The position numbers and the translations under genes were made by a program. A stretch of DNA of 64,000 bases, the filler included, from Piptocephalis cylindrospora (taxonomy: Eukaryota), in assembly GCA_003614145.1 (NCBI GenBank). It is 5 parts of 5 records of this genome, joined end to end, with 100 filler letters (N's around TTAATTAATTAA, not from the genome) between each part and the next. Parts side by side here need not be neighbours in the genome. Positions count along the whole stretch, not along the records: positions 13,479 to 26,846 come from KZ987943.1; 4 more parts are not named here. One strand, written 5' to 3'. Numbering within the stretch: position 1 is the stretch's first letter; each line of letters begins with the position of its first letter. The notes below the pieces were generated by a model. That model was not told where the DNA came from. It saw nothing but the letters and a program-made list of their open reading frames with translations, and searched no databases. Positions 14,376 to 20,853 of this stretch are shown here, piece after piece.

Positions 14376-16451
14376 CTATCTCCTCCAACTGGGACCGTTT
14401 GTTTGGGCAGGCATACCGCCCTGGGCAGGCATACCACCTTGAACAGATCCACCGCCCTGGAAGGATGTATTTCCTTGCGATGGTCCACTACTTGGTCCCA
14501 CGACCTGGTTTGGACCAGCTTCGGTTTGCTGGGAAAATCGACCATTCTGAATGGATCCACCTTCCTGAGGCATAGCAGAATTCTGACCGGCTCCAGCCTG
14601 TTGGGGGTTTTGACCGTTCTGGTTGAGCCCGCCCCCTTGAGGTATAGCAGAGCCCTGACCAGTTCCAATTGGCTGGGAAACTTGGCCGTTTTGGATGGTT
14701 CTGTTGCCTTGGGGCATAGCAGAATTCTGACCAGCTTGACCAGCGCCTCCTCCAGCCTGATTAGATCCAACGCCCCCTCCAGCCTTACCACCCTGTTGTC
14801 CTTGACTCTTTTTATCGTCAGGATTGAGGAGAACTCCATCTTTGTCCGTTACATTGGGGATGACTTGACCAGCAGCATCAGTAGTTACCGTAGTCTCCTC
14901 AGTAGGGTCATAAACGACGGACCGACCATTGGTCAGGACAACCGATGTGGCCCTGATGCCAAAGGCCGTCGGTCCTTGAGACCCGTCAGGAGATGGAAGG
15001 GATACGTCCGCCATGACAATTTGATTCCCAAGACTATCGACGACTAATGTGGCCTTCTTGGAGAGATCTTTCATCAGGGTGAGTTTGGCCAGGCTTTCGG
15101 GCCCAACATTGCCCATGAGAATGCCTGTCTGACGATCGAGAGACCAATTCCCTGGGACATTGGGTCCAGGGACCTGGGTGGGGAAATCGTCCAGACGGAC
15201 AGATCCCGGAGGGAGGGCGCTAAACCCGCCATTGGAGATCCGCATGTTAAATGCTTGGGCCTCTTGGGCTGTACTGTTCTCGGAGATCCCTGTAGTTGGG
15301 ACGGCATACCAGGCGTAGCTCATTGGACCATTGGATCCAGCGGAATTGGACCGGTAGGGGATACGGACGACGGCGGACTTTGTTACGCCCCATCGTTGGA
15401 TACCCTCAGGGGCTGTAGCGCTTTGCATCTTTCTGTCCGAGTAAATGCTGGCTCCGACGACAAGGGGAACACCGAACGCAAGCTGAGTTTTCGCGCTGCC
15501 CAGGGCCTCGGCCGTATTTAGACGAGACCCGCCATTGGCAACGCGGAACTTCTCCATGTTAGCCGAGATCCGACTATTCAATTGGGCAGCTTCAGCACGA
15601 TTGCTGCTGGTTAGGGTATCCTTGGAGATAATGCCCATCAGTTTTTGTTCATCTCGCACAATCGATTTTTGAATAGTCTGGGCCGTGGAACTCAACCCCT
15701 TGGGGCTTTGGCTAATGACTTTCTGAACCTCCGCAGTGACCGTCTTGGTCTCCATATTTACGTTCGAAAGGGCAAGACCTTTACCACCCGGCAGAGACTT
15801 CCAGCCCATCGAAAGGCCACGGCCGATATAGGGCACAGCAGCGGTAATACCACCACCAAGGAGTGCGGAAAACAGATCGAGTGAAACACGTTCACCAAAT
15901 CCGTTCTTGAAATCGGCGAAGGAACCCGTCTGGTTCTTCTCAATGGCCTGCTGAATGTCCATACCAACGAAACCTCCAATAGCGGCGCTCATGATGGGGC
16001 CTCCAAGGAGGGGAACCCCAATGAAAGGAAGTGCGACGGTGATGACAATGGAAACGATAAGGCCAATCAGGGCACCCTTGTGCTTTTTGATGAAGGTGAC
16101 CACGGACTTGCTAGCGATTTTGGCTCCACGTCCTACATTGCGAAAAAAGTCCCCGATCCCATCGAAAAATCCATCACGGCGAACTAGAGCACGGTGCCCA
16201 CCGAGAAGGTTCAGGGAAGGACTATAGAGGTCAGGAGTGGCGTCCACACTGGCGGGGAGTGGGAGGGCGGACCGACGATGAAGGAAAACGAGGGCGGCCC
16301 GAGAGGGATCATTGGGAATGTCAGAAATCGGGATGGAGCCAGAAAGGATATCCGGTGAAGCTAGGGCGAAGGCGTCATGGGAAGAGGTAAAGGGGCGGAG
16401 GAGGGTGCCTACCACAAGGCACAAAAAGAGGATCTGTGGGAGAGGTTTCAT
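14376..16451 (-). CDS. Secreted hydrophobic-hairpin protein A (691 aa), paralog of 18271-20853
   Basis: ATG 16451, signal peptide MKPLPQILFLCLVVGTLL, dibasic sites LHRR and LVRR, hydrophobic ALIGLIVSIVITVALPFIGVPLLGGPIMSAAIGG, beta-rich domain ending KDGVLL, Gln/Gly repeat tail. Intronless. Confidence 0.85.
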   Translation of the reverse strand: MKPLPQILFLCLVVGTLLRPFTSSHDAFALASPDILSGSIPISDIPNDPSRAALVFLHRRSALPLPASVDATPDLYSPSLNLLGGHRALVRRDGFFDGIGDFFRNVGRGAKIASKSVVTFIKKHKGALIGLIVSIVITVALPFIGVPLLGGPIMSAAIGGFVGMDIQQAIEKNQTGSFADFKNGFGERVSLDLFSALLGGGITAAVPYIGRGLSMGWKSLPGGKGLALSNVNMETKTVTAEVQKVISQSPKGLSSTAQTIQKSIVRDEQKLMGIISKDTLTSSNRAEAAQLNSRISANMEKFRVANGGSRLNTAEALGSAKTQLAFGVPLVVGASIYSDRKMQSATAPEGIQRWGVTKSAVVRIPYRSNSAGSNGPMSYAWYAVPTTGISENSTAQEAQAFNMRISNGGFSALPPGSVRLDDFPTQVPGPNVPGNWSLDRQTGILMGNVGPESLAKLTLMKDLSKKATLVVDSLGNQIVMADVSLPSPDGSQGPTAFGIRATSVVLTNGRSVVYDPTEETTVTTDAAGQVIPNVTDKDGVLLNPDDKKSQGQQGGKAGGGVGSNQAGGGAGQAGQNSAMPQGNRTIQNGQVSQPIGTGQGSAIPQGGGLNQNGQNPQQAGAGQNSAMPQEGGSIQNGRFSQQTEAGPNQVVGPSSGPSQGNTSFQGGGSVQGGMPAQGGMPAQTNGPSWRR

Positions 16452-20853: not shown

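What the first reader, a model, noticed from the sequence alone, without database searches (positions are those of the whole stretch)
14376..20853. Head-to-head pair of paralogous secreted hydrophobic-hairpin proteins: candidate fungal two-component pore/translocon
Seen: two intronless ORFs diverge from a 1.8-kb shared upstream region and have the same layout. Each has a signal peptide, a pro-region ending in a dibasic site (LVRR|DG; LQKR|GR), an amphipathic helix, a Gly-containing hydrophobic hairpin, a conserved segment (AIEKNQTGSFADFKNGFGERVSLD vs AMDAKEQGTWVDWATFEKTAPERWASD), a basic linker, a third hydrophobic segment and a ~190-aa domain. That domain has colinear matches: W.VT, WY....GI...S, PG.(V/I)RLD, P..FG, Y.P...T....D.....I.N...KDGVLL. 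Established: fungal Kex2 cleaves after KR/RR, and bipartite alpha-pore-forming toxins and T3SS translocon pairs are encoded by adjacent genes. Inference: co-regulated subunits that are proteolytically activated and insert into a target membrane, plausible for a haustorial parasite. I recognise no named family.
Basis: partly seen in the sequence, partly recalled or inferred. Interest (0 to 1): 0.88.

Follow-up and report, generated by a model that had tools for sequence, protein, structure and literature searches.

The report
Fungal parasite's bacterial-toxin-like membrane-entry module
Two neighbouring, distantly related genes, likely of a fungus that parasitises other fungi, encode predicted secreted proteins; one of them starts, after a predicted cut, with a greasy membrane module matching the one that bacterial Rhs toxins carry in front of their toxic tip, so it likely inserts into the membrane of a target cell.

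Summary
Both ORFs are real: A (691 aa, minus strand) and B (860 aa, plus strand) diverge from a 1,819-nt spacer. They are paralogues through a ~200-aa C-terminal domain (24% identity; 0 of 500 shuffles reach the score). Their N-terminal halves do not align significantly. The only relative found is a Piptocephalis tieghemiana orthologue of A (52%); none of B was found, so conserved pairing is not shown.

Just after the predicted Kex2 site, A and its orthologue match an unnamed hydrophobic module of actinobacterial Rhs polymorphic toxins, which lies between the Rhs cleavage motif and PT-HINT. Scores are 41 bits (orthologue) and 31 bits (A), HHalign 93.6%. Shuffles reach at most 20 bits, PDB 14, unrelated membrane proteins about 27. 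B does not match significantly.

Best reading: a secreted, Kex2-activated, membrane-inserting effector whose entry module likely derives from bacterial toxins. The C-domain has no recognised fold and keeps three glycosylation sequons, so it likely stays outside. An obligate A+B pore or translocon is untested, and no activity or expression is shown.

The parts
14376..16451 (-). Gene A, 691 aa (P0001): predicted pre-pro-protein with Rhs-cargo-like hydrophobic module, basic linker, C-domain and Gly/Gln tail
   Evidence: orthologue P0003 at 52%
16377..16451 (-). A: hydrophobic N-terminus, predicted signal peptide (about aa 1-25)
   Evidence: hydropathy 1.62; no signal-peptide predictor run
16176..16376 (-). 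A: pro-region (about aa 26-92) with two LxRR sites (aa 57-60, 89-92), both kept in the orthologue
   Evidence: Kex2 motif from PMC8528282 passages
15831..16175 (-). A: mature N-terminal module (aa 93-207): cationic amphipathic helix, Gly-rich hydrophobic hairpin, AIE-containing turn, third hydrophobic helix; matches the post-core/pre-HINT module of actinobacterial Rhs toxins
   Evidence: 50-73% identity to the orthologue by segment
15438..15803 (-). A: basic linker with a predicted helical bundle (aa 217-338), ending in a weakly hydrophobic helix
14823..15437 (-). A: C-domain (aa 339-543), predicted beta-hairpin and helix followed by an antiparallel beta-meander; three N-glycosylation sequons kept in the orthologue
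   Evidence: no specific fold match
14379..14822 (-). A: low-complexity Gly/Gln/Asn tail
16452..18270 (.). Divergent spacer, 1,819 nt, with pyrimidine-rich leaders before both starts
16967..16996 (-). Upstream of A: 30-nt stretch whose 11-, 13- and 8-nt pieces recur in the same order upstream of B
   Evidence: post hoc; 1 of 2000 shuffles and 11 of 2915 random pairs reach the score
17651..17876 (+). Upstream of B: the three shared words at 17651-17661, 17820-17832 and 17869-17876
18271..20853 (+). Gene B, 860 aa (P0002): diverged paralogue of A; no orthologue found
18625..18636 (+). B: LQKR predicted Kex2 site (aa 119-122)
18652..19056 (+). B: hydrophobic region (aa 128-262); aligns in register with the Rhs module but not significantly
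19906..20475 (+). B: C-domain (aa 546-735), homologous to A's

Best explanation
A is a predicted secreted pre-pro-protein that likely inserts into a target cell membrane after a predicted Kex2 cut, using an N-terminal module that matches, and likely descends from, the hydrophobic module of bacterial Rhs polymorphic toxins; B is a diverged paralogue that likely does the same. Shown: the two ORFs, their shared C-domain, the conserved LxRR sites, and the sequence match of A and its orthologue to the module. Inferred steps: (1) A signal peptide and Kex2 replace the Rhs shell and its DPxG self-cleavage, so the cationic amphipathic helix becomes the new N-terminus. (2) The helix binds an anionic membrane. 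(3) The Gly-rich hairpin and third helix insert, and the basic linker is drawn to the inner side. (4) The beta-rich C-domain, which keeps three glycosylation sequons and resembles no known enzyme, stays outside as a binding or oligomerising head. The outcome would be anchoring in, and permeabilisation of, the membrane. The likeliest target is the host fungus at the haustorium; competing bacteria are not excluded.
For: A profile of 56 bacterial modules, built without A, B or P0003, scores P0003's N-part 41.2 bits and A's 30.7 over about 100 of 122 positions. 0 of 700 shuffles reach either score in each of three schemes (maximum 20.1), reversed sequences score below 1.5, and other window proteins at most 3.8. 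HHalign gives probability 93.6%, E 2.2e-7. The result holds in 8 of 8 half-samples (P0003 33.9-39.3, A 21.9-30.6), and in reverse 24 of 56 members against 2 of 560 shuffled copies exceed 10 bits. Pairwise with L147: 34% over 79 aa, E 3e-6. Background: best of 177,635 PDB sequences 14.0 bits; unrelated membrane proteins in 301 genomes 22-27 bits over 43-65 positions. Bacterial context: 9 of 12 tested carry RHS repeats and 7 of 12 PT-HINT; 71 of 77 have a DPxG-type motif upstream. The module segments are as conserved between the two fungi as the C-domain (helix 72%, hairpin 67%, third helix 73%, C-domain 68%; linker 30-37%). All 4 sequons in A's module and C-domain are kept in P0003. Analogues in print: cleavage-released cationic helix of ABP toxins (PMC13460014), prePAAR transmembrane domains (PMC7773334), Tde1 glycine zipper (PMC10240207).
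Against: The seed family was chosen because it scored best against A and P0003 among 78 post-core sequences. Family-wise, A alone was marginal: 2, 12 and 9 of 150 shuffles reached it (P0003: 0, 0, 2). Full-length A scores only 25.4 bits, near the 22-27-bit ceiling of unrelated membrane proteins, so the case leans on the orthologue (37-38 bits). With the fungal side as query nothing bacterial appears: 0 hits at E 0.001 among 1.84 billion, a chance-level 3 of 401 actinobacterial genomes, and the seed's own genome missed at E 1. B never scores significantly (5.7 bits; HHalign 3.6%). The tree puts the fungal pair on a 2.89-long branch with no donor. I found no paper testing the bacterial module itself, so its function is also inferred. 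Four hydrophobic segments with a basic loop and outside sequons fit an ordinary resident membrane protein equally well. No expression, secretion or activity data.
Confidence: 0.42

Rival explanations
1. A and B are resident membrane proteins of the fungus's own surface or secretory pathway (N-out, four hydrophobic segments, basic cytosolic loop, glycosylated outside C-domain with an adhesin-like tail). The likeness to the Rhs module is convergent, or an inherited module serves only as an anchor.
For: Hydropathy of the first segment reaches 2.7 (A) and 2.4 (B). The basic linker lies between helices 3 and 4, and the conserved sequons fall where this topology puts them outside. Unrelated membrane proteins reach 22-27 bits with the module profile. 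No bacterial hit.
Against: The flank before the first segment is strongly basic (+6 to +8 in aa 101-150), yet it would be luminal after a signal peptide, against the positive-inside rule (general knowledge). The match covers about 100 positions including the polar HK and AIE motifs, and survives local shuffles. No housekeeping family matches, and the family is confined to one genus in these searches.
Confidence: 0.25
2. Single-chain toxin: the module carries the C-domain across the target membrane, and the C-domain is an unrecognised cytotoxic or host-manipulating payload, in the position that HINT plus toxin occupy in Rhs.
For: Domain order equals the Rhs cargo order. The C-domain has invariant polar residues across all three proteins (RLD, D, N, DGVLL). 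Toxin-associated transmembrane domains are implicated in carrying payloads (PMC7773334 abstract; 10.1101/2025.10.28.685041 passages).
Against: No HINT or other release protease. Three conserved sequons would be glycosylated and hinder threading (inference). The C-domain is shared rather than polymorphic between A and B. No enzyme fold was matched (best Z 6.7), and no likeness to 29 bacterial cargo tails.
Confidence: 0.15
3. Obligate two-component pore or translocon: A and B are co-expressed from the shared spacer and must hetero-oligomerise, for example by joining their open beta-meanders, to form a channel in the host membrane.
For: Head-to-head paralogues; shared upstream words in mirror orientation (1 of 2000 shuffles); the predicted C-domain meander matches mainly open sheets and partial barrels. 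A surface complex implicated in effector delivery exists in a biotrophic fungus (PMC8159752 abstract).
Against: No orthologue of B at 473-1505 aa or below 473 aa, although A's orthologue was found; the other assembly may be incomplete. Adjacent paralogues arise by local duplication without any interaction. The word statistic was chosen after seeing the words.
Confidence: 0.15

Closest known systems
Actinobacterial Rhs / PT-HINT polymorphic toxins (post-core hydrophobic module; system reviewed in PMC3482391)
   Same: A aa 93-207 matches the module (basic amphipathic helix, HK, Gly-rich hairpin, turn, third helix) and likewise sits behind a cleavage site and before a basic linker and a C-terminal domain.
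   Different: No RHS repeats, no DPxG core, no HINT, no recognised toxin domain; eukaryotic signal peptide and Kex2 site instead; B's copy is not significant.
ABP toxins (AbpT/AbpP) of Gram-positive bacteria (PMC13460014)
   Same: Works alike in outline: general secretion, then proteolysis frees a cationic amphipathic helix proposed to insert into the target membrane.
   Different: No BetaH domain was tested for; the protease would be the producer's Kex2; A has three further hydrophobic helices and no known toxin domain.
prePAAR transmembrane domains of T6SS effectors (PMC7773334) and the Tde1 glycine zipper (PMC10240207)
   Same: Gly-rich hydrophobic helices implicated in membrane crossing; the Rhs1 66-aa chain 6XRR is the top, non-significant PDB hit of the module profile (14 bits, E 0.39); A has GxxxG motifs.
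   Different: Those need T6SS and Eag or Tap chaperones and lie N-terminal to PAAR; no significant sequence match.
Kex2-processed pro-domain (K2PP) fungal effectors (PMC8528282)
   Same: Signal peptide, pro-region and LxRR/LxKR site in the first half.
   Different: The class is defined by processing only; cleavage was not tested. These proteins are large and carry several membrane helices.
Bipartite alpha-pore-forming toxins (YaxAB, XaxAB, Hbl/Nhe) and T3SS translocon pairs (recalled)
   Same: Two adjacent related genes with hydrophobic hairpins.
   Different: No sequence match; a beta-rich C-domain and pro-region that those families lack (recalled); divergent rather than co-transcribed; interaction untested.

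Membership tests
Rhs / PT-HINT polymorphic toxin | RHS/YD repeat shell and DPxG core | tested here: not met
   No RHS or YD family at E up to 1; C-domain profile scores at most 5.5 bits on 2,730 frames of 219 loci
Rhs / PT-HINT polymorphic toxin | Post-core hydrophobic module, in A and its orthologue | tested here: met
Rhs / PT-HINT polymorphic toxin | Post-core hydrophobic module, in B | tested here: inconclusive
   5.7 bits, 5-53 of 700 shuffles reach it; HHalign 3.6%
Rhs / PT-HINT polymorphic toxin | HINT autoprotease before the tip | tested here: not met
   No Pfam HINT hit in A or B
Rhs / PT-HINT polymorphic toxin | Variable C-terminal toxin domain with an adjacent immunity gene | tested here: inconclusive
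   C-domain is shared by A, B and the orthologue and has no recognised fold; no immunity gene could be tested
K2PP fungal effector | Signal peptide plus pro-region ending in a KR/RR or LxxR site | tested here: met
   (signal peptide by hydropathy only)
K2PP fungal effector | Cleavage by Kex2 and secretion in vivo | not testable with these tools
   needs proteomics or an in vitro Kex2 assay
ClyA/YaxAB/Hbl alpha-pore-forming toxins and SctE translocators | Long helical-bundle fold with hydrophobic foot | tested here: inconclusive
   N-part model pLDDT 43; only generic three-helix matches, best Z 9.2
Bipartite pore or translocon | Conserved gene pairing | tested here: inconclusive
   A's orthologue found, B's not; the orthologue's contig could not be read
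Bipartite pore or translocon | A-B binding and joint activity | not tested

The most novel reading that the evidence does not exclude
A haustorial mycoparasite took the membrane-entry module of a bacterial Rhs polymorphic toxin, rewired it from shell self-cleavage to Kex2 activation, duplicated it head-to-head, and uses the pair as a pore or translocon in the host fungus's membrane: a bacterial-toxin-derived delivery device in a fungus.
Probability: 0.15. Interest if true: 0.92.

Novelty: new variant of a known kind. Interest (0 to 1): 0.68.

Why it matters
How biotrophic fungi breach or feed through a host membrane at the haustorium is largely open; PMC8159752 (abstract) notes that bacterial-type effector delivery systems had not been detected in fungi. 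This locus gives a concrete, testable candidate in an early-diverging mycoparasite with, by one review's account, few secondary-metabolite genes (PMC10386755 passage). It also singles out a common bacterial module without a Pfam family. Its appearance in a shell-free fungal protein suggests that it works as an autonomous membrane-entry unit, which bears on how Gram-positive Rhs toxins get in. I found no paper on these genes in 10 searches of the held library (Zoopagales + Rhs + toxin gave 0). Most subscription papers and supplements were not searched.

Tried and rejected
Family scans: nothing significant in Pfam, NCBIfam or PHROGs or among PDB sequences.

Homologues: no further ones at 90% or 50% clustering or in metagenome contigs. 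No whole genome is held for the window, so paralogues elsewhere in it could not be counted; inside the window there is none.

Atlas: hits for A were below 0.9 (lead only); none usable for B's C-domain.

Folds: the C-domain gave no match at E 0.001 in PDB or viral models, and best Z 6.7 to generic beta-meanders. That the C-domain derives from YD repeats was considered and found no support. The N-part model was low-confidence.

Plasmid tblastn of both N-parts gave only E 2-10 hits. A narrower bacterial subfamily did not rescue B (-2.0 bits); adding A and P0003 to the profile gave B 6.0 bits (5 and 16 of 500 shuffles).

RNA: contigs of two runs only guessed to be RNA cover B 19629-20230 alone, with inverted chimeras; a food metatranscriptome has short pieces in A's 5' end, the spacer and flanks. 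Neither shows expression or co-expression.

The joint 16632-18048 rests on 23 letters with loose ends and was read as a repeat from elsewhere.

Contamination was rejected: the neighbours are fungal-type housekeeping genes and the orthologue is in a second fungus.

Earlier findings of the scan: nothing in 4 look-ups. The tree (77 bacterial rows plus A and P0003, B left out) names no donor.

Full report
OBSERVATION. Two open frames diverge across 1,819 nt: A (14376-16451, minus, 691 aa) and B (18271-20853, plus, 860 aa). Both score best for codon usage in the annotated frame. A DNA contig covers 14006-19876 unchanged (X1, possibly the source) and a second sample bridges 16325-18142. Each protein has a hydrophobic N-terminus, an L-x-[KR]-R site (A89-92, also A57-60; B119-122), an amphipathic helix and a hydrophobic region. 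A and B are homologous in the C-terminal ~200 aa: 24% identity, E 4e-7, 0 of 500 full and 0 of 500 local shuffles. Their N-parts are not significantly alike (57 and 133 of 500).

RELATIVES. The only other protein found is P0003, KAI9225332.1 of Piptocephalis tieghemiana (Zoopagales), 52% identical to A. A three-sequence profile over 1.84 billion representatives returned only P0003 and B itself. No orthologue of B appeared at 473-1505 aa or below 473 aa. The window is therefore likely from a Piptocephalis species (inference). A review describes Zoopagales mycoparasites as forming haustoria and attacking mostly Mucoromycota (PMC10386755, passages). Between A and P0003 the amphipathic helix (72%), hairpin (67%), third helix (73%) and C-domain (68%) are conserved and the linker is not (30-37%). 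Both LxRR sites and all four sequons in module and C-domain (A173, 392, 435, 533) are kept. Pfam, NCBIfam, PHROGs and PDB sequences gave nothing significant.

STRUCTURE. The C-domain model (pLDDT 68, pTM 0.67, 3 sequences) is a beta-hairpin and helix followed by an antiparallel meander. It has no match at E 0.001 and best Z 6.7, rmsd 3.1 over 76 residues, to the CPAP TCP10 sheet, in the range the tool calls common. The N-part model is all-helical but unreliable (pLDDT 43) and gives generic matches.

THE LEAD: HOW IT AROSE. The Atlas's top feature hit for A was an Rhs-core-associated cluster at 0.87, below its bar. I also recalled that actinobacterial Rhs proteins carry hydrophobic helices after the core. 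A pattern scan gave 121 loci, of which 78 had 100 aa or more after the core. Best-of-78 scores were exceeded by 0, 0 and 2 of 150 shuffles for P0003, by 2, 12 and 9 for A, and by 29-41 for B. The best seeds were then used, without fungal sequences, to collect the family: 3 of 401 genomes, 51 of 201 in the family of an Actinoplanes genome, and 21 of 251 in the family of a Streptomyces genome. I used the 57 loci returned, 56 unique.

THE LEAD: SCORES. Their profile scores P0003's N-part 41.2 bits, A's 30.7 and B's 5.7. None of 700 shuffles reaches A or P0003 in each of three schemes; reversed sequences score below 1.5. HHalign gives 93.6%, E 2.2e-7 for A plus P0003 and 3.6% for B. Half-samples, the two bacterial families separately, the reverse direction (24 of 56 against 2 of 560) and the window's 854 frames (A 25.2, next 3.6) agree. 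P0003 aligns with L147 at 34% over 79 aa, including the HK and AIE motifs (A 33% over 72). With 77 members P0003 scores 43.5 and A 28.9.

THE LEAD: BACKGROUND AND CONTEXT. The best of 177,635 PDB sequences is 14.0 bits, and it is an Rhs1 chain (6XRR, E 0.39). In 301 genomes of another phylum 5 passed E 0.001: two are Rhs post-core modules and three are unrelated membrane proteins at 22-27 bits over 43-65 positions (at most 14 candidates per genome were scored). Of 12 family members scanned, 9 carry RHS repeats, 7 PT-HINT and 2 neither. 71 of 77 have a DPxG-type motif upstream. The module itself has no Pfam family.

AGAINST. The seed was selected on the fungal sequences. Full-length A (25.4 bits) is near the unrelated ceiling, so the case rests on P0003 (37-38 bits). 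Searches from the fungal side find nothing bacterial. B is never significant. The tree gives a 2.89-long fungal branch and no donor. I put common ancestry of the module at about 0.7 and convergence at about 0.3 (judgement).

MECHANISM. In the bacterial proteins the module lies between the shell's self-cleavage motif and the HINT-plus-toxin tip, the position of an entry domain. This is inference: I found no test of this module. Analogous modules are implicated in membrane crossing: prePAAR domains (PMC7773334, abstract and outline; 10.1101/2025.10.28.685041, passages), the Tde1 glycine zipper (PMC10240207, abstract and outline), and the protease-released cationic helix of ABP toxins (PMC13460014, first part and passages). 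In A a signal peptide and a Kex2-type site (motif from PMC8528282, passages) would expose the same module at the N-terminus. I commit to secretion, Kex2 activation and insertion into a target membrane, with the basic linker inside and the glycosylated C-domain outside (0.42). Rivals are a resident membrane protein (0.25), a single-chain toxin with a translocated C-domain (0.15), and an obligate A+B pore (0.15).

PAIRING. Two non-repetitive words (11 and 13 nt) and an 8-mer occur in the same order upstream of both genes, contiguous before A and spaced before B. 1 of 2000 shuffles and 11 of 2915 random pairs reach the score, a statistic chosen afterwards. This is a weak hint of shared regulation. 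RNA-labelled runs were uninformative and the complex predictor was not available, so A-B binding is open.

OTHER PAPERS. PMC3482391 and PMC13018210 were read as passages and gave no description of this module in what I saw. PMC8159752 was seen as abstract and outline. Other papers were seen only in search listings; no supplements were read. Names of the YaxAB, Hbl and SctE families are recalled.

VERDICT. A real, genus-restricted paralogue pair. It is not a member of the Rhs family (no shell, no HINT) nor a shown two-component pore. It is best filed as a new eukaryotic variant of the polymorphic-toxin entry module. Interest 0.68.

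Noticed in passing
L128-L214 (e.g. L147:1450-1845 minus): A ~120-aa hydrophobic module between the Rhs core and PT-HINT is common in actinobacteria (51 of 201 and 21 of 251 genomes) yet has no Pfam family; a candidate entry domain of Gram-positive Rhs toxins.
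   Followed up: partly
window 9471-10511 (+): 346-aa ORF with a hydrophobic N-terminus and no Pfam or NCBIfam match; another orphan secreted candidate 4 kb from A.
   Followed up: partly
window 39802-40275 (+): Secreted-looking protein with a repeated Cys-rich unit separated by an acidic spacer, cut by an N gap.
   Followed up: no
window 61084-63456 (+): 790-aa ORF with long E/K/M/R-rich repeats and a hydrophobic C-terminal part.
   Followed up: no
window 53775-59175 (+): TOR-like kinase gene (name by eye, not scanned) in two overlapping frames at 56839-56897: intron or assembly slip.
   Followed up: no
window 51149-51775 (+): Membrane-anchored protein whose C-terminus looks like an RlpA/expansin-like domain (recalled, not scanned).
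   Followed up: no
window 13379-13478, 26847-26946, 40224-40323, 53545-53644: Four 100-nt spacers of two 44-N runs around 12 letters; the window likely joins separate contigs there, so neighbourhood across them is uncertain.
   Followed up: no
window 19869: A minority contig of run X1 has one extra G in a G-run inside B (depth 81 of 579), probably a homopolymer or amplification slip.
   Followed up: no
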